This document shows, one piece after another, positions 4,685 to 48,440 of a stretch of 64,000 bases of DNA. The notes beneath the pieces are model-generated. The model ran no database searches, was not told the DNA's origin, and saw only the letters and a list, made by a program, of their open reading frames with translations. This stretch comes from an uncultured virus (IMG/VR IMGVR_UViG_3300032132_000750) (taxonomy: Duplodnaviria; Heunggongvirae; Uroviricota; Caudoviricetes). The stretch is taken from the IMG/VR virus record IMGVR_UViG_3300032132_000750; one strand, written 5' to 3'. The number at the start of each line of letters is the position of its first letter. Position 1 is the stretch's first letter. The translations under genes and the position numbers were made by a program.

Positions 4685-6217
4685 ATGCCAAAAACACCCA
4701 AACATTGCGTTCGAACAGGACCCAACACTCTTGAGATTGAGGGTGTTGAGGTCAAAAACCGCATCTACGCTAATGAAGATGTGCCTGTTGAAGATGACGC
4801 CGTCGAAGAACTCAGATCCTTGCTCGAAGTTCAGAAAACGGCTGACGCTATGTACAAAGCTAAGCCAAATTGGTTTACTAAGAAGCCTAAGATTCTTCAG
4901 GTAAACCTTTCACCGGACTTTCATAAAGGTGCGGGAATTCCTATCGGAACCACTTTGGTCACAGAAGGAATGGTTATACCGCAAGCAGTTGGAAACGACG
5001 TTAACTGCGGAGTCCGTCTTCTTCGACTTGGAATTCGTGCTGATGCCTTGATTGGTGGACTAGACAATTTAGAGCCTGTTTTACGGAAAATTTTCTTCGA
5101 GGGGGGTCGTAATATCGCGCTCTCTCAGGAACAAAGAAAATCTATAATCGGCTCTGGGGTGATGCATCTAACCAAAGAAGTCCGAGAAAACGAAGATGCC
5201 AACAGCATCTGGAAATACTTTAATCAACGAAGACACAACCTAGAACTAAGTAAAACCCGCCATAACGGGGGTTTCAATACAAACGGAAACTCTTTTGGGT
5301 TGGAGGATTACCTCACCCGGAGAGGTATTAGCCGTGACTCCCAAATAGGAAGTATAGGAGGCGGTAATCACTTTGTTGAACTACAGGTAGTGAAGAAAAT
5401 TCACAACAGGACTATGGCTCATCACTGGGGTCTCCGAAAAGGCCGAGTGGTAGCGATGATCCACAGTGGGTCTGTAGGAATCGGACACCTGTGCGGAGGG
5501 CTCTACAATACAGTTGTTCGTGATATCTATAAAAAAACAGGGCTTAAGTTTCCAGATAACGGTATTTTTCCGCTTCCCGATGCTATTCCTGAATTCAAAC
5601 GTTTTTGGACGATGCTCCATAATGCTGCGAACTTTGCATTTGCCAATAGGATGTTTCTGGGGCTCATGTTACAACAGGCTATCGCAGAAGCCTATGAGTT
5701 CGCCCCCTCCCTAAATCTACTCTACGATACTCCTCATAATCTGGCCTGGCCTGCAAACAACGAAGGTCACATTGTTCATCGTAAAGGTACAAGCCCGGCC
5801 TGCGGAAATGAGTGGAGCTTTAACCGAGGATTTGAGCGTCCTTGCGGAGAACCAGTCCTGATTCCAGGATCTATGGGCTCATCAAGCTTTATTATGCAAG
5901 GATTGGGTAATTCAGACGCGCTCTACTCTGCCTCTCATGGTGCGGGCCGTTCTTTGAGTAGGGGTAAGGCTCTGAAATTTGATGATGAAGCCTTTCAGGC
6001 ATTTCTGAGAGACTTCCGCATCATTACTCCCATTGATCCTAACAGAAAAGATATAAAGAGTAGAAAGGACATTCTCAAAAAATATCACGAATCACTGAAG
6101 AAAGAGGCTCCGTTCGCCTACAAGGATGTCTATCCGGTTGTAAACACTTTGCGAGATGCTAAGATCGCTGATCCCGTAGCAGAGTTAAGTCCCATCCTAA
6201 CTCTCAAAGGAAACTAG
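4685..6217 (+). CDS. rtcB: RtcB family RNA ligase (3'-phosphate/5'-OH)
   Basis: PDFHKG, GNDVNCG, GGGNHFVE, HSGS, HRKG, PGSMG, SHGAGR, EAPFAYK motifs. Confidence 0.95.
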   Translation: MPKTPKHCVRTGPNTLEIEGVEVKNRIYANEDVPVEDDAVEELRSLLEVQKTADAMYKAKPNWFTKKPKILQVNLSPDFHKGAGIPIGTTLVTEGMVIPQAVGNDVNCGVRLLRLGIRADALIGGLDNLEPVLRKIFFEGGRNIALSQEQRKSIIGSGVMHLTKEVRENEDANSIWKYFNQRRHNLELSKTRHNGGFNTNGNSFGLEDYLTRRGISRDSQIGSIGGGNHFVELQVVKKIHNRTMAHHWGLRKGRVVAMIHSGSVGIGHLCGGLYNTVVRDIYKKTGLKFPDNGIFPLPDAIPEFKRFWTMLHNAANFAFANRMFLGLMLQQAIAEAYEFAPSLNLLYDTPHNLAWPANNEGHIVHRKGTSPACGNEWSFNRGFERPCGEPVLIPGSMGSSSFIMQGLGNSDALYSASHGAGRSLSRGKALKFDDEAFQAFLRDFRIITPIDPNRKDIKSRKDILKKYHESLKKEAPFAYKDVYPVVNTLRDAKIADPVAELSPILTLKGN

Positions 6218-24601: not shown

Positions 24602-24612
24602 CAGCTAGGGGT

Positions 24613-24683
24613 AGCGCGTTGGTCTAACAGACAAGACGCTTCCTTTGTGGGAAGAAATCTAGGTGCAACTCCTAGACGCGCTA
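24613..24683 (+). tRNA. tRNA-like gene with 6-nt anticodon loop (identity ambiguous, Gln or Thr)
   Basis: AGCGCGT/ACGCGCT-A, GTCT/AGAC, CTTCC-TTTGTG-GGAAG, CTAGG-TGCAACT-CCTAG. Confidence 0.6.
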
Positions 24684-24684
24684 T

Positions 24685-41849: not shown

Positions 41850-41949
41850 AGTCCTATAGTGTTAATGGCAGGGTAGATGAGCCCACCCAGGTTCATTGCT
41901 AGCACGCCGAGTTATATCGGTAGACGGGGTTCGATTCCCCGTAGGACGC
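41850..41949 (+). ncRNA. tRNA-like RNA with enlarged D arm and 6-nt anticodon loop
   Basis: GTCCTA/TAGGAC, GTGT..GCAC enclosing an insert, GCCGA-GTTATA-TCGGT, CGGGG-TTCGATT-CCCCG. Confidence 0.55.
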
Positions 41950-42246
41950 TTTCAGAACATTGAGCGCTGGACGTAGAACAAGGTGGCTGGAGTTATTGGA
42001 CAAACATCCGGAGGCATATAGCACTCGCTTTGAGAGTTGCGAAGTCCTCTCGGCGGTGCTAGAATGGGCGCGCGGCATTGCTCCGTAACGCTACTCTCTG
42101 ATAAAGAGACGTGCGTTGTTGCATGAGCCAAGGCGATAACGGTTCCGTTGTTGTTGGTGCAACGATGTTTTTAGGGGCGGGTAAACCGTTCCGTGTTCGA
42201 CGGCAAAAGTGGCTGCGTTCTACGTTCAGCGCTCAATGTTCTGAAA
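41950..42246 (+). ncRNA. ~297-nt RNA closed by a 30-bp heptad-repeat stem (family member 2)
   Basis: 41950-41979 pairs with 42217-42246 with one G-U. Confidence 0.65.
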
Positions 42247-42407
42247 AGTTCAGGTGATTAGTATGATTCAACTTGCATGTATCTTTGATTTTGGTCTCTG
42301 CTTCGTAGTTGGGGGGCTTGTTCTCGCGGCAACAGGTAAGACCTTTCACTGGTGCTTCAAAAAGAATTGCAGCGATCATCAGCACTGAATAGTTTCAAAA
42401 TAAACTA

Positions 42408-42480
42408 GGGGGCGTAACTCAATTGGTAGAGTACCGGCCTTTTAAGCCGTTTGTTGCGAGTTCAAGTCTCGCCGCCCCTA
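42408..42480 (+). tRNA. tRNA-Lys(TTT)
   Basis: Canonical cloverleaf, anticodon loop CTTTTAA, T loop TTCAAGT. Confidence 0.93.
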
Positions 42481-42509
42481 TTTTTAACCCTCAACCGATT
42501 CCGAATGAA

Positions 42510-42875
42510 ATGCGAAAACCGTCCGTAAAACATTTGACCGATGAGCAGCTTACACAGTGGTATCCTACCCAGTATACCGAAGTGAAAGAGGCTCATCCAG
42601 AAGCAGATGAAGCCACTTTGTTGGTTGAGTTGCGGAAGGTTCTTCTCGCAATGCATGACCCCCTTACCGGGCCAGCATGTAATGCGATTAATGCAAAGGG
42701 TGAATCCGTTAACATCGAAGACCCTGCTGTCAAAGACGCATGGATGAATGGTGGTCCAGGTTTTGAGAACCCTTTCTGTCTTCATTGCGAGAAAGATGAC
42801 TCGACCACCATCACCCGTAAGTCGGGTATCAAGGTCACGCTCCCTCCGGGAATGAAAATCACAAATCCAGACTGA
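42510..42875 (+). CDS. Hypothetical protein
   Basis: ATG 42510 in frame with ORF 42423, downstream of the tRNA. Confidence 0.55.
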   Translation: MRKPSVKHLTDEQLTQWYPTQYTEVKEAHPEADEATLLVELRKVLLAMHDPLTGPACNAINAKGESVNIEDPAVKDAWMNGGPGFENPFCLHCEKDDSTTITRKSGIKVTLPPGMKITNPD

Positions 42876-42879
42876 GTGC

Positions 42880-42907
42880 TTGACACCCAGCCAGGGCGTG
42901 CTAGTAT
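42880..42907 (+). promoter_or_regulatory. Sigma70-type promoter for the repeat-RNA/TROVE-TerD unit
   Basis: TTGACA-16 nt-TAGTAT with extended TG; predicted start coincides with repeat 1 at ~42913. Confidence 0.65.
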
Positions 42908-42989
42908 ATCAAAATGAGGCCATAGCTCAGCTTCCTTCTAACCAACAATGATAAAAACCAGTTGAGCAACTTTCCTCATTAACAATCAA

Positions 42990-43103
42990 GGCCGGATAGT
43001 CTAAAAAGTAGGTGCAATCCCTACCATCTCCATACGCGGAGATGTCCCCGAGGGGGATAAGACGCCAGAAATGGAGATTTAGGTGAAACACCTTCTCCGG
43101 TCA
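42990..43103 (+). ncRNA. tRNA-like RNA with a second permuted tRNA-like module nested in its D loop
   Basis: GGCCGGA/TCCGGTC-A; GTCT..AGAC encloses GTAGG-TGCAATC-CCTAC, CATCTCC/GGAGATG and TCCCC/GGGGA. Confidence 0.5.
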
Positions 43104-43217
43104 TCGTCCTGCCTCTTGTGAATGGCTACGTCCCACGTAGCTGGATGCTAATCAACGTTCCGTTAAACGAACAAGGTTAGATTAGCAAGAGGCGGGACAC
43201 CAACTAGGTAATAAGAT

Positions 43218-43346
43218 ATGAAACTGCGAATCGCTAAAAAGGTCCTCAAAGCTGAGATGCAAGGTCGAACGGTTCGCCGGAAGACCTTGGATGAGGCAAA
43301 GCGTCGAGTAAAAGACAAACCTCGCTGGGATCCGCGAATACAGTAA
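43218..43346 (+). CDS. 42-aa basic peptide (not in ORF track)
   Basis: MKLRIAKKVLKAEMQGRTVRRKTLDEAKRRVKDKPRWDPRIQ, AGGT upstream. Confidence 0.45.
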   Translation: MKLRIAKKVLKAEMQGRTVRRKTLDEAKRRVKDKPRWDPRIQ

Positions 43347-43800
43347 AAACAATACCAAGGCCACAAGACAGCTTCCTTCTAACTTTTCTGATAAAAAAAC
43401 CTAAGTTGTCTAACTTTCCTTGGTTCTCAAACAAAAGAGGCCACAGAAACACTTCCTTCTAACCTACCTGGAAGTTGCGGGTTCGAATCCCGCCCGTGCA
43501 ATGTATGTTGTGCGGTGGAGCAACGGTAGCTCGCCAGGCTCAAAACCAGTGTTTCAACTATCCTTAACAAAACAAGCTAAAGGCCATGAGATGGCTTCCT
43601 TCTACAATATTGGATGTGGGGGTTTTCGGACCCCCTCCTCCCCCTACAAAAACAGCTATCTCACTTTCCTTGGCAACAATCTAACAAACTTTGGCCATCG
43701 AGCGGCATCCTTCTACTAAACGGCCTTGCTTTCTGTAACCTGCGCTAGAGCAGAGCGGCAAGGCTGTTATCAAGCCGCCCCACTTTCCGAGGTAATCTCA

Positions 43801-45933
43801 ATGTCCGTAGCACTGCCTGTTTCTCCGCATCGTGCCAAGCAGAAGATCGCCATCAAGAAGCTCAATGCTCTTGTTTTTGGCCCTGCGCCCGCTGTCGCAT
43901 ACGATAGTGTTCAAGGCGCGTCCACTATCGCCACATCGATGCTCTCATTGGGCTATGTTCCCTCGCGTGAACTTTTCACAGCGATGGCTGCGATGCCCGA
44001 AGAGCAGCTCATCGAAGTACATCGCGATGTGATTGGCATCCTTCAAGAATTGAAGGGTGCTCACGTTAAGCATCAGCCGATGTATCCCAACTTTCCTCAG
44101 CAGGTAATCGATGCATCGCACCTGGAGCTTTTCTCCAACGCGATCTTGCATTACTGGACTGTGGGCGAGTGGCGTCCCACCTACGAAGTTCTTCCTCGTG
44201 AATATTATTCCGAGGAAACCAAGTTCTGGGAAATCGGTTTGACGACCGATGAGCAGTTCCGAGATATTTTCCGCCAACTGCTCGGCTCAAACGATTCCCT
44301 CTCCGATGAGGATAAGGGTTACATCGAGTGGTTCATGCTGAATGAGCCCAACCTGTCCTTCCCCAACGCCATCCCATTCAAAGAGAACATGTGCGTCGTT
44401 GCAGGCATGTTCATCAAGGCTGGAATGCAGCCTGATGAGTTGATGCACACTGCAACTGATGTTCTTCGTGTCATCACCTATCTCAATGACGGTGATGTTT
44501 CTTTGGCGGCCAAGACCAAGTACAAGTCTCTCCCTCGCTCACAGCGCAGGATGTTCGCGAAGCTGCTCAACAAGCACGCCTCCGAGGAAGACGTTCATCG
44601 TCACCGAGGTAAGTGGACTCGCGTTTTCCACTCTCTCCATATTGGAGAGTTCAAGAAGCGTTTTCCTGACATCTGCGCGATTGCGGCAAAGATCCGCAAC
44701 AATGAGACCATCCGCACCTTTAACGGTCGCGTTGATATGGCAATCACAGCACGTCTTGCAGAAAACACAATCGAAATCCTCAAAACCCGTCCCGGTGAGT
44801 TCGCTCGTCGTTTGGATCATCTGTTCCGAATCTTTGGGGACACTGATGACGCCAAGATCATCGGCGGATTCCTTGAGATCGCAGACAAGATTCCTACGCG
44901 AATCCTAATGCAAGTAATGGGTCATCTCCAGACTCGTGATTCCTCTGCTCACAAGGCGTTGAAGGGTCAGGGTCGGGTTGTATTCCCCAAGGGTCACGTT
45001 CAGAAGGCACGTATTCTGCCAGCAGCAGATAAGCCGCTCAATGACGCTAACGTAGCAGCTTTGCGCTCGGGCATTGAAGGGGTTCTGGTAGATCGCTTTG
45101 CAGCCATGCCCACTCTGGGCAAGGTTTACCTCGACCCTGAGTTGATGTTGTGTCCCATCCCGTCGCAGCAACGCTCTGCATCGGAAGGAATGTTCAACGT
45201 CGCTCGTGGAACGCGATTGCCTTTCGGTGACCCCAGCAAGACCACTTTGCGTTTCTTCATCCATTGGGTTAACCCCGGTGTACGAAGTGACCTCGATCTA
45301 AGTGCTACGCTCTATGATGACCAGTTCAACTTTCTGGATGCGGTCACTTACTACACTGGAAAGTCTGATAAGTATCAGGCGCACTTTAGCGGAGATGAAA
45401 CCAATGCGCCTGCTCCGCGCGGTGCTAGCGAATTCATCGACATCACCCTTAGCGCAGCCCAAAAGGGTGTTCGCTATGTAGTAATGGATGTGCGCTGCTA
45501 CACGGGAACCCCTTTTTCCAAGCATGAAGAGTGTTTTGCTGGGTGGATGACGCGCGAAGAGCCCAACAGCAACGAAATCTTCGACGCAAAGACGGTAGAA
45601 GCCAAGGTTGACCTTCGTAACGGGAGTCGCAATGCCATTCCTGCTGTCTTTGACCTCGTAGAGCGCAAGGCTATCTGGTGCGATGTTTCGGGATCATCGC
45701 ACAGCCACCGAAGCGGCAACAATGTTGCTTCCAACAAGGCTAGCATCAAGGAAACCTTGCGTGCAATCGTACAGGCGGCCAATAAGGTTAGCCTCTACAA
45801 GCTCTTTGAGCTTCACGCTAAGGGTCGCGGTGAGATGGTCGAATCTCCCGAAGAAGCGGATACCATCTTCTCGCTCAACCAGGGCATTACGCCTTACGAC
45901 ATCAACACAATCAGCAGCGATTTCCTCGCTTAA
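43801..45933 (+). CDS. ROT/TROVE-like helical protein with C-terminal TerD domain
   Basis: MYPNFPQQV, TATDVLR, RPGEFARRLDHL; C-terminal TerD motifs DLDLSA, FSGD.T.AP...ASEFID; SD GAGGT supports ATG 43801. Confidence 0.75.
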   Translation: MSVALPVSPHRAKQKIAIKKLNALVFGPAPAVAYDSVQGASTIATSMLSLGYVPSRELFTAMAAMPEEQLIEVHRDVIGILQELKGAHVKHQPMYPNFPQQVIDASHLELFSNAILHYWTVGEWRPTYEVLPREYYSEETKFWEIGLTTDEQFRDIFRQLLGSNDSLSDEDKGYIEWFMLNEPNLSFPNAIPFKENMCVVAGMFIKAGMQPDELMHTATDVLRVITYLNDGDVSLAAKTKYKSLPRSQRRMFAKLLNKHASEEDVHRHRGKWTRVFHSLHIGEFKKRFPDICAIAAKIRNNETIRTFNGRVDMAITARLAENTIEILKTRPGEFARRLDHLFRIFGDTDDAKIIGGFLEIADKIPTRILMQVMGHLQTRDSSAHKALKGQGRVVFPKGHVQKARILPAADKPLNDANVAALRSGIEGVLVDRFAAMPTLGKVYLDPELMLCPIPSQQRSASEGMFNVARGTRLPFGDPSKTTLRFFIHWVNPGVRSDLDLSATLYDDQFNFLDAVTYYTGKSDKYQAHFSGDETNAPAPRGASEFIDITLSAAQKGVRYVVMDVRCYTGTPFSKHEECFAGWMTREEPNSNEIFDAKTVEAKVDLRNGSRNAIPAVFDLVERKAIWCDVSGSSHSHRSGNNVASNKASIKETLRAIVQAANKVSLYKLFELHAKGRGEMVESPEEADTIFSLNQGITPYDINTISSDFLA

Positions 45934-45983
45934 TTCAGAAGTTTGGGCTTGTTATTTGATGCCCACGCTAGAAGGACTCTGTA

Positions 45984-46781
45984 ATGTGTATCTTTTCTGG
46001 AGCCGTTGAAAGTGTCAACGCTACCCGTATCTTTGGTCGTATGACCGATGATGGGGTTCAGTATCTCGTCTATCAGATGGATTTTTCCGCTGAGGATGAG
46101 GTAGCAATGATTCTGCCCTTTCCTTGTGACAAGGATCGCGGAGAGCCAGAATTCATCAATCTAGAGGAGTTTCCCGGCTTCTTTAAGGGCTTGGATAAGC
46201 AGTTTCCGAAGCCACGAACGCGCGGCGGGACACGCGGCATGATGAGCAAGGGGATTAGCTTTTCTGCCCCTCTTGCGGTCCACAATGTTGGGGCTTTCGA
46301 AGGCTCTTTCGTGCCGACTATCGAAGACTTTGGTCGTCTTGACAGGCGTTTCCAGCTTCCTACCGCATCCTTAGATGTGATGAAGGTGCTATACGCTGAT
46401 TTCAGCTTTGCTGTGTTCAAGCTAAAAGCTGGTGCGGACCAGAAGGTTCATCCGATGGCCTTCAAGTTTCCATCTGCCCAGCTTGATACGATCTTCTTCC
46501 CGACTGTTCACGTCCATGATGGCGGTTCAGTTCCCGAGAAGGAGACTTTCGATCATGCGCTCTATGTTCAAGTTCCATCTGACAAGCTGGAACGGGATCT
46601 GGCGGCCTACAAAAGGAAGTCCGATTCTCGTGTAGAGATTTCCCCACACAGCTTGACACGCAATATGCCAGAGAAACTGCAACGAGCGCATCAAGGCATT
46701 CTGGCCGATGCTCGTGGTTTCAAGGTCACCTTGAAGGGTCATTATCCTAACCAGGATATGCCCTGGAGTCTGGACGACTAA
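45984..46781 (+). CDS. Conserved hypothetical protein (DUF2330-like N-terminus)
   Basis: MCIFS, AMILPFP, VHNVGAF, HPMAFKF, FFPTVHVHDG. Confidence 0.55.
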   Translation: MCIFSGAVESVNATRIFGRMTDDGVQYLVYQMDFSAEDEVAMILPFPCDKDRGEPEFINLEEFPGFFKGLDKQFPKPRTRGGTRGMMSKGISFSAPLAVHNVGAFEGSFVPTIEDFGRLDRRFQLPTASLDVMKVLYADFSFAVFKLKAGADQKVHPMAFKFPSAQLDTIFFPTVHVHDGGSVPEKETFDHALYVQVPSDKLERDLAAYKRKSDSRVEISPHSLTRNMPEKLQRAHQGILADARGFKVTLKGHYPNQDMPWSLDD

Positions 46782-48335: not shown

Positions 48336-48440
48336 GGGCGGATAGTTTAACGAAGGGTGAATGGTTCGACCACGCTCTGACAGGTAAAACGAAGCGCATT
48401 TATCTTTCGCTTCATGCAAGTTCGAATCCTGCTCTGCCCA
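48336..48440 (+). ncRNA. tRNA-like RNA with D-loop insertion and 11-nt anticodon loop
   Basis: GGGCGGA/TCTGCCC-A, GTTT..AAAC, GAAGCG/CGCTTC, GCAAG-TTCGAAT-CCTGC. Confidence 0.55.

What the first reader, a model, noticed from the sequence alone, without database searches (positions are those of the whole stretch)
43436..43565. Circularly permuted initiator-tRNA-like module inside repeat 3
Seen, in order: CCTGG (43467), AAGTT, T arm GCGGG-TTCGAAT-CCCGC, acceptor-like stem CCGTGCA closed by a loop to TGTGCGG, D arm GAGC-AACGGTA-GCTC, CCAGG (43538), then CTCA. This is T arm, closed acceptor stem, D arm, with the RNA opened at the anticodon. The sequence resembles tRNA-fMet (TGGAGCA..GGTAGCTCG..GGCTCA). 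Known: this permuted order is the hallmark of YrlA-type bacterial Y RNAs. Inference: a non-chargeable tRNA mimic, perhaps a decoy for anti-tRNA nucleases or an adaptor.
Basis: partly seen in the sequence, partly recalled or inferred. Interest (0 to 1): 0.85.

Follow-up and report, generated by a model that had tools for sequence, protein, structure and literature searches.

The report
tRNA-mimic RNA with a new protein partner
This stretch is a small RNA gene that carries a tRNA written in rotated order, one of five tandem RNAs sharing a conserved "handle" that is found across bacteria and large phages only beside one uncharacterised 700-residue protein rather than beside Ro60, the known partner of such RNAs.

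Summary
Bases 43467-43538 encode a circularly permuted tRNA-like fold: anticodon-stem 3' strand, T arm, loop-closed acceptor stem, D arm, anticodon-stem 5' strand. Rfam YrlA matches it below threshold (34.7 bits, E 3.8e-5). A model built only from 26 relatives finds it at 68.1 bits (E 1.2e-14). All four helices covary across 27 homologues.

The context is new. The element is the third of five tandem small-RNA units (42911-43795). They share a basal module: helix P1, GGCYA, helix P2, UUCCUUCUA, a variable insert, YAG, P2', RCUUUCC, P1'. The array lies just upstream of a 710-aa ORF.

This basal module matches no Rfam family. It lies on the same strand next to homologues of that protein in 64 of 70 viral and 65 of 74 bacterial loci. 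It occurs nowhere else in five whole genomes and never beside Ro60 genes (0 of 12). No TROVE/Ro60 gene was found in any of the 10 relatives' genomes searched.

Best reading: a Ro60-independent, Y-RNA-like ribonucleoprotein system. The tRNA mimic, most like tRNA-Met(CAU), would be an adaptor module. RNA-protein binding is inferred from linkage, not shown. The protein's fold could not be tested.

The parts
42880..42907 (+). Sigma-70-type promoter-like site (TTGACA, 16 nt, TG-TAGTAT) just before the first RNA unit
   Evidence: 10 of 12 matches, TG before the -10. It is the only site with 10 or more matches in 42300-46100. A consensus match only; not shown to be used.
42911..42982 (+). Unit R0: basal module with a short apical loop
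   Evidence: Model R1, 64.7 bits (a seed member). Fold with P1 and P2, z -3.81.
42990..43199 (+). Two strongly structured elements between R0 and R1 that lack the basal motif (42990-43102 and 43106-43199). It is uncertain whether they belong to the system.
   Evidence: -88.7 kcal/mol, z -6.42, 0 of 200 shuffles as stable; inverted repeat I5. Weak DUF3800-VIII match, E 0.69.
43352..43426 (+). Unit R1: basal module with a short apical loop
   Evidence: Model R1, 58.9 bits (a seed member). Fold z -3.68.
43436..43565 (+). Unit R2 (the finding): basal module carrying the permuted tRNA-like domain
   Evidence: 5' motif found by regex at 43439. P1 4 bp and P2 8 bp in the fold. Leave-one-out model R3 aligns 43452-43572 including the flanking UUCCUUCUA and AG..ACU.UCCUU, 68.1 bits. 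Model R1 alone cannot span the 78-nt insert.
43467..43538 (+). Permuted tRNA-like domain: anticodon-stem 3' strand, variable loop, T arm, acceptor stem closed by an 8-nt loop, D arm, anticodon-stem 5' strand
   Evidence: Closest to tRNA-Met(cat).
43575..43676 (+). Unit R3: basal module with a G+C-rich apical hairpin
   Evidence: Model R1, 45.1 bits, E 6.1e-11, not in the seed. Fold z -3.60.
43686..43795 (+). Unit R4: basal module with a long apical hairpin. Its P1 3' strand (CCGAGG) contains the Shine-Dalgarno GAGG of the ORF.
   Evidence: Model R1, 25.7 bits, E 3.7e-5, not in the seed. Fold. Sequence.
43801..45933 (+). 710-aa ORF: proposed protein partner. An uncharacterised family, named 'TerD family protein' by NCBI for bacterial members. 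It shares its core with the NF041916 SCO0854 family.
   Evidence: Genomic linkage to the RNA.

Best explanation
**Shown.** Bases 43436-43565 are one gene of a rightward array of five small structured RNAs lying between a promoter-like site (42880) and a 710-aa ORF (43801).

Every unit has the same basal module:
- closing helix P1, ending in an invariant GG:CC
- an asymmetric internal loop (5' CYAY, 3' RCUUU)
- a 9-bp helix P2
- an apical loop that opens with the invariant UUCCUUCUA and closes with YAG

The apical insert varies between units. In this unit it is a rotated tRNA whose acceptor end is closed by a loop and whose anticodon stem runs into the basal module. It can therefore be neither charged nor read a codon.

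The basal module is a conserved, covarying RNA motif. It is found on the same strand directly beside homologues of the 710-aa protein in bacteria of several phyla and in large phages, and nowhere else in the five whole genomes searched.

**Inferred.**
- The basal module is the binding site of the 710-aa protein.
- The RNA-protein particles work like Ro60-Y RNA particles: the constant handle holds the protein, and the variable apical module acts as an adaptor.
- Here the adaptor has the shape of an initiator/Met-type tRNA. It would bring tRNA-recognising factors (elbow, T-loop or acceptor binders, tRNA-modifying or RNA-repair enzymes) to the protein, or aim the protein at tRNA-binding machinery.
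- The last unit may also let the protein control its own translation, because its P1 helix sequesters the ORF's Shine-Dalgarno sequence.
For: **tRNA-like domain**
- Rfam YrlA matches over its full length, E 3.8e-5.
- The leave-one-out model gives 68.1 bits, E 1.2e-14.
- Covariation in 27 units: 96.4% paired against 70.0% in shuffles, 0 of 500. Acceptor stem 98%, D arm 99%, anticodon stem 89%.

**Basal module**
- 56 short units are 93.0% paired against 56.3% in shuffles (0 of 500), and 42-51% when slid. These units were chosen using pairing criteria.
- A test free of pairing criteria used 190 units defined by sequence motifs alone. P1 has 3.53 of 5 pairs and P2 has 6.92 of 9. Partner-swapped controls give 2.00 and 4.57 (maxima of 500: 2.26 and 4.85).

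**Linkage to the protein gene**
- Model R1 hits 64 of 70 viral loci (151 hits) and 65 of 74 bacterial loci (99 hits). All 250 hits are on the gene's strand.
- Eight of the 9 bacterial misses have under 200 bases upstream of the gene.
- In five whole bacterial genomes, 8 of 8 R1 matches lie at the gene.
- In the 64-kb window there are only four hits, all in this array.

**Not the Ro60 system**
- R1 gives 0 hits in 12 rsr (TROVE) loci. The same loci carry YrlA (11 of 12 by Rfam; 12 of 12 by model R2).
- TROVE was not found among 63 window ORFs, in 3 related viral records, two of them at least 90% complete, in 5 bacterial genomes, or in 2 complete cultured-phage genomes.
- The protein profile against a Ro60 profile gives hhalign probability 0.3%.

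**Link to RNA repair**
- Clear RNA-repair or tRNA-end neighbours occur in 9 of 53 bacterial loci examined: RtcB directly upstream on the same strand in L142, L143, L144 and L148; RNA ligase in L076 and L089; RlaP twice in L078; Thg1 in L140; a PolyA_pol/CCA-type enzyme in L118.
- The window itself encodes RtcB at 4685-6217.

**Trans-acting rather than leader only**
- Arrays reach nine units (L001).
- Arrays lie downstream of the gene in many viral loci.
- A second copy lies 2 kb away in Brevibacillus.
Against: - No binding was tested. The protein partner rests on gene linkage alone.
- No RNA data exist; no RNA run holds this DNA.
- Model R1 does not report unit R2 as a whole, even with filters off, and R2's P1 helix has only 4 pairs.
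- The tRNA-like module is present in a minority of loci: 13 of 74 bacterial and 15 of 57 viral. It is therefore not essential to the system.
- RtcB is absent from the two near-complete related phage genomes. The four RtcB-linked loci are similar Bacillota assemblies and are not independent.
- By eye, a Ro60-linked YrlA of Bacilli (L153 611-745) has the same overall layout (P1, internal loop, P2, tRNA-like domain, U-rich 3' side). A very distant relation of the two systems, or of the two proteins, is therefore not excluded.
- Only 64 kb of an 859-kb contig could be read, so a Ro60 gene elsewhere on it cannot be excluded.
Confidence: 0.6

Rival explanations
1. An ordinary YrlA-type Y RNA that works with Ro60. 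The Ro60 would be encoded elsewhere on the 859-kb contig or supplied by the host. The neighbouring 710-aa gene would be a bystander.
For: - Rfam YrlA matches over its full length.
- Its score of 34.7 bits lies in the same range as true Ro60-linked YrlAs of Bacilli, 31.6-44.1 bits.
- Model R2, built from this family, detects all 12 Ro60-linked YrlAs.
- The overall layout is similar.
- Only 64 kb of the contig was visible.
Against: - The basal module has its own conserved letters. It is never found at rsr loci (0 of 12) and always found at the 710-aa gene.
- TROVE is absent from all 10 relatives' genomes or records searched.
Confidence: 0.12
2. A cis-acting leader only. The units would be 5'-UTR elements (operator, attenuator or riboswitch-like) that control the 710-aa gene, and the tRNA-like insert would be a ligand or protein platform in cis.
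For: - The units mostly lie directly upstream on the same strand.
- R4's P1 helix contains the ORF's Shine-Dalgarno sequence.
- In Brevibacillus the single unit is followed by a run of eight U just before the start codon.
Against: - Tandem arrays hold 3-9 units, some with promoter-like sites of their own, seen by eye in L001.
- Many arrays lie downstream of the gene (for example L016, L026, L039, L050, L052, L074).
- Extra copies lie 2 kb away (L100, L105, L109, L111, L115).
- In most loci read, the Shine-Dalgarno sequence is not inside the unit (L001, L107).
Confidence: 0.12
3. A free-standing tRNA decoy. The initiator-like mimic would soak up a host anti-tRNA defence or another tRNA-binding protein, independently of the neighbouring protein.
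For: - tRNA shape with a closed acceptor end.
- A large-phage-like setting with its own tRNAs, three aminoacyl-tRNA synthetases and RtcB.
- The module is closest to tRNA-Met(cat).
Against: - There is no anticodon loop, so anticodon nucleases have no target.
- The same framed module occurs in free-living bacteria (11 strong bacterial cases), where a phage counter-defence role does not apply.
- It is always embedded in the basal module.
Confidence: 0.1
4. A circularly permuted tRNA gene that is processed into a working tRNA, as in some algae, or a decayed tandem tRNA duplication.
For: - All four arms are present.
- The 5' half is very like tRNA-Met(cat) 5' halves.
- Tandem tRNAs do give local matches to the permuted model (L161 1525-1623).
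Against: - No anticodon loop can form.
- There is no CCA and no sign of a splice-type junction.
- The same permuted order is conserved with covariation in 27 units across phyla, which argues against decay.
- The known maturation route for permuted tRNA genes uses a eukaryotic/archaeal splicing endonuclease (recalled, not tested).
Confidence: 0.03

Closest known systems
YrlA / bacterial Y RNAs with Ro60 (Rsr), e.g. the Salmonella rsr-yrlBA-rtcBA operon (Rfam RF02553; Chen et al. 2014, PMC4201824, passages read)
   Same: - Permuted tRNA-like domain: T arm, loop-closed acceptor stem, D arm.
- A long basal stem formed by the two ends.
- Several tandem RNAs beside one protein gene on the same strand, only some with a full tRNA-like domain and others with a T arm only.
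- Occasional linkage to RtcB.
- Present in bacteria and phages.
   Different: - No TROVE/Ro60 gene; the neighbour is an unrelated-looking 700-aa protein (hhalign probability 0.3%).
- The basal module has its own invariant letters (GGCYA, UUCCUUCUA, YAG, RCUUUCC) and is not detected at rsr loci.
- Scores are below the Rfam threshold.
- The tRNA-like module is present in only about a fifth of loci.
Deinococcus radiodurans Yrn1/Yrn2 and metazoan Y RNAs
   Same: Modular design: a protein-binding stem plus an effector module. Polycistronic arrays (PMC4201824, passages).
   Different: - The partner is Ro60.
- The binding motif is of the GGUCCGA/GNCGAA type.
- The arm order is different in Yrn1.
Circularly permuted tRNA genes (red alga Cyanidioschyzon) and two-piece, permuted tmRNA genes (recalled; Rfam tmRNA_permuted)
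   Same: The 3' half of the tRNA-like part is encoded before the 5' half.
   Different: - Those are matured into RNAs with a free CCA end.
- Here the acceptor end is closed by a short loop and there is no anticodon loop or tag reading frame.
- Rfam's tmRNA_permuted model gave no match in the window at E up to 10 and only 23.8 bits, E 0.36, in L001.
SPFH/Band-7-associated 'novel tRNA-like molecule' of RNA-repair operons (Burroughs and Aravind 2016, NAR 44:8525; recalled from its abstract; the paper is not held)
   Same: A tRNA-like RNA proposed as the cognate RNA of a scaffold protein other than Ro60, in an RNA-repair context.
   Different: - No Band-7/SPFH domain was seen among the 63 window ORFs or the 134 neighbour ORFs scanned.
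- I could not read the paper, so I cannot say whether that RNA or the present protein family is described there.

Membership tests
YrlA (Rfam RF02553; Ro60-associated Y RNA) | Score at or above the Rfam gathering threshold (69 bits) | tested here: not met
   34.7 bits and no match at gathering threshold. Control: true YrlAs beside rsr in 12 Bacilli loci also score only 31.6-44.1 bits (11 of 12 listed). This failure therefore says little.
YrlA (Rfam RF02553; Ro60-associated Y RNA) | tRNA-like domain in the order T arm, loop-closed acceptor stem, D arm | tested here: met
   Model R2, built from this family, detects 12 of 12 Ro60-linked YrlAs.
YrlA (Rfam RF02553; Ro60-associated Y RNA) | Encoded within about 4 kb of a TROVE/Ro60 gene and on its strand (criterion of Chen et al. 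2014) | tested here: not met
   No TROVE among 63 window ORFs. None in 3 viral records, 5 bacterial genomes or 2 cultured-phage genomes of relatives. The rest of the 859-kb contig was not visible.
YrlA (Rfam RF02553; Ro60-associated Y RNA) | GNCGAAN0-1G motif near the 5' end (proposed Ro60 contact) | tested here: inconclusive
   The regex is absent from 25 of 25 tRNA-like units of this family. It is equally absent from 12 of 12 Ro60-linked control YrlAs, so the test does not discriminate.
YrlA (Rfam RF02553; Ro60-associated Y RNA) | Bound by Ro60/Rsr; carries tRNA-type modifications | not testable with these tools
   Needs immunoprecipitation and modification mapping.
Basal-module RNA defined here (model R1) | P1, GGCYA, P2, UUCCUUCUA ... 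YAG, P2', RCUUUCC, P1' | tested here: met
   Units R0, R1, R3 and R4 score 64.7, 58.9, 45.1 and 25.7 bits. For R2 the letters and both helices are present, but R1 cannot span its 78-nt insert.
Basal-module RNA defined here (model R1) | Lies beside, and on the strand of, a homologue of the 710-aa protein | tested here: met
   The array ends 6 nt before the ORF's start codon. Family-wide linkage.
Canonical tRNA | Cloverleaf in normal order, called by ARAGORN or Rfam tRNA at 29 bits or more | tested here: not met
   No ARAGORN call. Rfam tRNA gives 20.1 bits, E 0.78, for a partial alignment at 43417-43501.
Ro60 / TROVE protein (for the 710-aa ORF) | TROVE domain (PF05731) by sequence or profile | tested here: not met
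   No Pfam match at E up to 10. 0 of 30 family members match at E up to 5. hhalign against 12 Ro60 orthologues gives probability 0.3%. No TROVE cluster among the Atlas structural neighbours listed. A fold comparison was not possible.
TerD domain protein (name given by NCBI to bacterial members) | TerD domain (PF02342) | tested here: not met
   0 of 30 members match at E up to 5. The only trace is an Atlas neighbour cluster in which 22% of members carry PF02342.
NF041916 MXAN_6230/SCO0854 RING-domain family | Score at or above the curated cut-off (600 bits), including the N-terminal RING part | tested here: not met
   395.9 bits. Residues 303-681 align with model positions 385-758 of 842. The core is shared; no RING part was matched.

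The most novel reading that the evidence does not exclude
A second, Ro60-independent class of Y-RNA-like ribonucleoproteins exists.
- A conserved RNA 'handle' (P1-GGCYA-P2-UUCCUUCUA...YAG-P2'-RCUUUCC-P1') is the cognate RNA of a large uncharacterised protein family: 3565 cluster representatives at E up to 0.001.
- The family occurs in bacteria of many phyla and in large phages.
- The handle carries exchangeable adaptor modules, including YrlA-type tRNA mimics.
- The particles act in RNA repair or RNA surveillance.
- Large phages expand the RNA genes into arrays of 5-9 units with different adaptors. In this phage-like contig one adaptor copies an initiator/Met-type tRNA.
Probability: 0.5. Interest if true: 0.85.

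Novelty: new variant of a known kind. Interest (0 to 1): 0.75.

Why it matters
Bacterial Y RNAs have so far been defined by their partner Ro60. They are the main example of a non-coding RNA that adapts a protein to other machines through a tRNA-shaped module. This locus shows the same tRNA-shaped module mounted on a different, strongly conserved handle. That handle travels with a different and very widespread protein of unknown function.

If the linkage reflects binding:
- It assigns a first functional clue (RNA binding, an RNA-repair context) to a protein family with thousands of members.
- It defines an RNA family missing from Rfam 15.
- It may explain the 'orphan' YrlA-like RNAs without Ro60 that this scan noted in other phages.
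- It shows that tRNA-mimic adaptor modules have been exchanged between unrelated RNA-protein systems.

The system occurs in cultured hosts and phages, such as Brevibacillus, Paenibacillus and Rhodococcus phage Weasels2. The idea can therefore be tested directly.

Tried and rejected
- **Structure of the 710-aa protein.** No model was made and no fold search was run, so whether the N-terminal part is a TROVE-like ring stays open.
- **Sequence searches against solved structures.** Nothing useful: best E 0.98 for the single protein and 0.37 for the profile.
- **PADLOC.** No match for the protein or five neighbouring ORFs.
- **ESM Atlas.** Only the protein's own relatives and the SCO0854 RING family appeared.
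- **Representative-library search.** 3565 relatives were found, but only the 150 best are listed, so distant relatives could not be inspected.
- **DNA search against GenBank phages.** The query was window 42800-46000; no match.
- **Expression.** No RNA holder is listed for the locus. One DNA run holds it and may be its source.
- **Whole-genome search.** Not possible for the window; no genome is held.
- **TROVE in 201 genomes of the class of G004.** None found, so no control loci came from there. Controls came from Bacilli instead: 14 of 301 genomes.
- **Deeper Ro60 profile.** The homologue search returned only close relatives, at least 58% identical among the 120 listed. It was not used for a second hhalign.
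- **First two pairing scripts.** They used a wrong register or a too permissive criterion; a shuffled control found a closing helix in 65% of cases. They were replaced by the test.
- **GNCGAA motif test.** Uninformative.
- **Permuted tmRNA and an ordinary tRNA.** Considered and rejected.
- **Re-joining the two halves to run a tRNA finder.** It was not done, since covariation and the leave-one-out model answer the same question.
- **Literature.** No paper in the searched library links TerD or SCO0854 proteins with Y RNA or YrlA. Searches: 'YrlA, Y RNA, phage'; 'TerD, Y RNA'; 'TROVE, TerD'; 'TROVE, RtcB, Y RNA, biological conflicts'; 'SCO0854'; 'TerD, RNA motif, noncoding'; 'YrlA, Ro60' from 2019. 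Burroughs and Aravind 2016 (PMC5062991) is not held. The supplements of Chen et al. 2014 were not opened; their tables of phage YrlAs may bear on the question.
Full report
**1. The observation**

- CCTGG 43467-43471 and AAGTT 43472-43476
- T arm 43477-43493 (GCGGG, TTCGAAT, CCCGC)
- a 7-bp stem, CCGTGCA 43494-43500 with TGTGCGG 43509-43515, closed by an 8-nt loop
- D arm 43518-43532 (GAGC, AACGGTA, GCTC)
- CCAGG 43534-43538, which pairs with the CCTGG
- CTCA 43539-43542

This is a tRNA written in rotated order. The acceptor end is closed and the anticodon end is open.

ARAGORN calls nothing here, and Rfam lists nothing at its gathering thresholds. In an E-value search of 42000-45000, the YrlA model RF02553 aligns over its whole length to 43445-43559. 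The score is 34.7 bits (gathering 69), E 3.8e-5.

The single-sequence MFE fold recovers the T arm, the acceptor hairpin and two outer helices. It pairs the D-arm and anticodon-stem letters in another way.

**2. The element is one of five repeat units**

The repeat finder and folding show five units:
- R0: 42911-42982
- R1: 43352-43426
- R2: 43436-43565 (the finding)
- R3: 43575-43676
- R4: 43686-43795

All share the same frame:
- a closing helix P1 ending in GG:CC
- GGCCAY
- helix P2, whose letters differ in every unit but stay complementary
- the constant UUCCUUCUA
- a variable apical part
- AAAAC(C)AG
- P2'
- (A/C)ACUUUCC and P1'

The apical part differs by unit. It is a short loop in R0 and R1, a G+C-rich hairpin in R3, a long hairpin in R4 and the rotated tRNA in R2.

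A promoter-like site (TTGACA, 16 nt, TG-TAGTAT; 10 of 12 matches) ends 4 nt before R0. R4 ends 6 nt before the ATG at 43801 of a 710-aa ORF, and its P1 3' strand contains that ORF's GAGG. Between R0 and R1 lie two very stable structures (z -6.42) and a 42-codon ORF.

**3. The neighbouring protein**

The ORF 43801-45933 has these properties:
- no Pfam match
- a match to PHROG 33734, of unknown function
- a shared core with NCBIfam NF041916 (SCO0854 RING family), at 395.9 bits, below the 600-bit cut-off and without the RING part
- 1645 relatives among 7999 scored candidates; NCBI names some bacterial ones 'TerD family protein'
- 3565 cluster representatives at E up to 0.001 in the 50%-identity library

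Pfam supports neither TerD nor TROVE in any of 30 members. No solved structure is related by sequence. PADLOC gives nothing. The ESM Atlas holds a confident model (pTM 0.86), but its listed neighbours are only this family and the RING family.

**4. The RNA travels with this protein**

I fetched loci around relatives of the protein: 74 viral-contig loci (70 after dropping four stretches fetched twice) and 74 bacterial loci. A simple pattern for the 5' half of the frame already showed 1-9 copies on the gene's strand beside the gene in most loci.

Covariation in the basal module:
- From 56 short units I built alignment A2 and model R1. The 16 pairs of P1 and P2 are 93.0% paired against 56.3% in column shuffles (0 of 500), and 42-51% when the partner is slid. 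There are 349 double-change cells against 109.
- Those 56 units had been picked with pairing criteria, so I repeated the test on 190 distinct units defined by sequence motifs alone. P1 has 3.53 of 5 pairs and P2 has 6.92 of 9. Partner-swapped controls give 2.00 and 4.57 (maxima of 500 swaps: 2.26 and 4.85).

Where R1 hits:
- 151 matches in 64 of 70 viral loci.
- 99 matches in 65 of 74 bacterial loci, at E up to 0.001.
- All 250 matches are on the gene's strand. Of the nine bacterial loci without a match, eight have under 200 bases upstream.
- In five whole bacterial genomes of 4.5-9.3 Mb, all 8 matches lie at the gene. Only the 150 best first-look candidates per genome were scored.
- In the 64-kb window, the only matches are R0, R1, R3 and R4.
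- R1 cannot bridge R2's 78-nt insert, even with filters off.

No Rfam family other than YrlA and tRNA overlaps the units in the window region or in 14 relatives' loci at E up to 1.

**5. The tRNA-like module is conserved and covaries**

A scan for T arms outside ARAGORN-called tRNAs found the same framed, rotated tRNA in many loci. I aligned 27 of them (A3).

The four helices are 96.4% paired against 70.0% in shuffles (0 of 500), and 34-45% when slid:

| Helix | Cells paired | Pairs with double changes |
|---|---|---|
| Acceptor stem | 98% | 6 of 7 |
| D arm | 99% | 2 of 4 |
| Anticodon stem | 89% | 4 of 5 |
| T arm | 100% (a perfect T stem was a selection criterion) | 4 of 5 |

Model searches:
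- Model R3, built from the 26 relatives without the window, finds 43452-43572 at 68.1 bits, E 1.2e-14, with no non-standard pair.
- Full-length tRNA-like units (model R2, E up to 0.001) occur in 13 of 74 bacterial loci.
- They also occur in 15 of 57 non-redundant viral loci, besides the window.
- Other units carry only a T arm, or plain hairpins.

**6. Relation to YrlA and Ro60**

As a control I collected 12 rsr (TROVE) loci of Bacilli; 14 of 301 genomes had one.
- Rfam YrlA scores 31.6-44.1 bits upstream of rsr in 11 of 12. This is the same sub-threshold range as the window (34.7) and its relatives (37.3-47.1 in L076, L077, L087 and L090; 39.6 in L001).
- Model R2, built only from the new family, detects the Ro60-linked YrlA in 12 of 12. 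The tRNA-like domains of the two systems are therefore of one kind.
- The basal model R1 finds nothing in the 12 rsr loci at E up to 1.

TROVE was absent from:
- the 63 window ORFs scanned
- three related viral records, two of them at least 90% complete
- five bacterial genomes that carry the new system
- the complete genomes of two cultured phages that carry it

A profile of the new protein family does not align with a profile of the 12 Ro60 orthologues: hhalign probability 0.3%, with both profiles shallow.

Two limits apply:
- The GNCGAAN0-1G motif of Chen et al. 2014 is absent from our units, but equally absent from my Ro60-linked controls, so that test is uninformative.
- By eye, a Ro60-linked YrlA (L153 611-745) has a comparable layout with different letters. 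A very old common origin cannot be excluded.

**7. Functional context**

Of 53 bacterial loci whose neighbours I scanned with Pfam (134 ORFs in all, including 8 viral loci), nine have clear RNA-repair or tRNA-end enzymes within 2.5 kb:
- RtcB directly upstream on the same strand in four Bacillota assemblies (L142, L143, L144, L148), giving the order RtcB, RNAs, protein, NUDIX regulator
- RNA ligase in L076, together with RNase T and an HD/AAA_33 protein
- RNA ligase in L089
- two RlaP genes in L078
- Thg1 in L140
- a PolyA_pol/CCA-type enzyme in L118

The window encodes RtcB 39 kb away. It also encodes Tyr-, Arg- and Met-tRNA synthetases and a formyltransferase.

Evidence against a strict link: the two near-complete related phages have no RtcB, most loci have unrelated neighbours, and the four RtcB loci are not independent.

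**8. The window's module is Met-like**

Its D stem is GAGC/GCUC, whereas 25 of the 27 aligned units have C-G at the second D-stem position. The 5' half aligns with phage tRNA-Met 5' halves down to GGCUCA.

That an A11:U24 pair marks bacterial initiator tRNAs is recalled, not tested. The following AAAACCAG is also present in R0, which has no tRNA part, so it belongs to the frame and not to a former anticodon loop.

**9. Cultured examples**

The protein has homologues in 11 GenBank phage records.
- In Xanthomonas phage XacN1, three units (30.4-42.8 bits) fill the unannotated gap upstream of ORF396.
- In Rhodococcus phage Weasels2, three weaker units (13.1-21.7 bits) and one full tRNA-like unit (51.4 bits, E 3.5e-11) fill the unannotated gap downstream of gp266.

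**10. Reading**

Shown:
- a real, conserved, covarying rotated tRNA-like domain of the YrlA kind
- a new conserved basal RNA module
- an exclusive genomic association of that module with one uncharacterised protein family rather than with Ro60

Inferred:
- The protein binds the basal module.
- The variable apical modules act as adaptors, as in Ro60-Y RNA particles.
- The system acts in RNA repair or surveillance.

Rivals are listed separately: Ro60 encoded elsewhere or supplied by the host, a purely cis-acting leader, a free decoy, and a maturable permuted tRNA.

**11. Prior knowledge**

Chen et al. 2014 (PMC4201824; passages read through 'find') define YrlA by its vicinity to TROVE genes. Iyer et al. 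2021 on jumbo phages (PMC7824862; passages) mention Rot/TROVE with a tRNA-like partner and TerD separately, without linking them.

Seven full-text searches found no paper linking TerD or SCO0854 proteins to Y RNAs. Burroughs and Aravind 2016 could not be read. From memory, its abstract mentions a novel tRNA-like RNA with SPFH/Band-7 scaffolds. No Band-7 domain was seen here.

Earlier notes of this scan report 'orphan' YrlA-like RNAs in phages without Ro60. They may belong to this family, but I did not test that.

Noticed in passing
window 42990-43199: Two very stable structured elements (42990-43102 and 43106-43199) lie between units R0 and R1. They fold at -88.7 kcal/mol, z -6.42, and lack the basal motif. 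There is a weak DUF3800-VIII match, E 0.69.
   Followed up: partly
window 43218-43346: A 42-codon ORF for a basic peptide lies inside the RNA array, between the structured elements and R1. It has no PADLOC match. Whether it is a gene is unknown.
   Followed up: partly
window 41851-41947: A tRNA-like stretch with a perfect T arm (CGGGG-TTCGATT-CCCCG) and acceptor-like ends (GTCCTA / TAGGAC) about 96 nt apart. ARAGORN does not call it and no Rfam family matches at E up to 1. It may be a tRNA with a long insert.
   Followed up: partly
window 48336-48440: An Rfam tRNA match of 105 nt at 31.1 bits, just over threshold, that ARAGORN does not call. It may be an intron-containing or long-arm tRNA.
   Followed up: no
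window 24612-24684: ARAGORN reports a tRNA of undetermined type with a two-base anticodon 'tg'. Rfam does not list it at gathering threshold.
   Followed up: no
window 1-64000: The gene content looks like a huge phage.
- It encodes Tyr-, Arg- and Met-tRNA synthetases, RtcB, an adenylosuccinate synthetase that PHROGs files with 2-aminoadenine (PurZ-type) enzymes, adenylate kinase, two macro domains, a histidine kinase with two response regulators, a formyltransferase and scattered tRNAs.
- The protein collection records an 859,269-base contig for the 710-aa protein.
- No phage structural gene was looked for, so the phage nature is not shown.
   Followed up: partly
L011 2158-2290: One unit of a related viral locus carries a tRNA-like insert in the normal order (D arm, a stem-loop, then the T arm) instead of the rotated order. 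This was seen in the printout.
   Followed up: no
L001 2216-2320; L077 2206; L117 2049; L009 427: Units whose apical module is a T arm alone, followed by a small hairpin and with no D arm. They recall the YrlB-type RNAs described beside Ro60.
   Followed up: no
L161 4909-5296 (Rhodococcus phage Weasels2, record 85472-85859); L162 2398-2892 (Xanthomonas phage XacN1): The gaps left unannotated in these two GenBank phage genomes are filled by arrays of the RNA units described here.
   Followed up: yes
L142, L143, L144, L148: Bacillota assemblies have the gene order RtcB, two RNA units, the 700-aa protein, then a NUDIX/NrtR-type regulator, all on one strand.
   Followed up: partly
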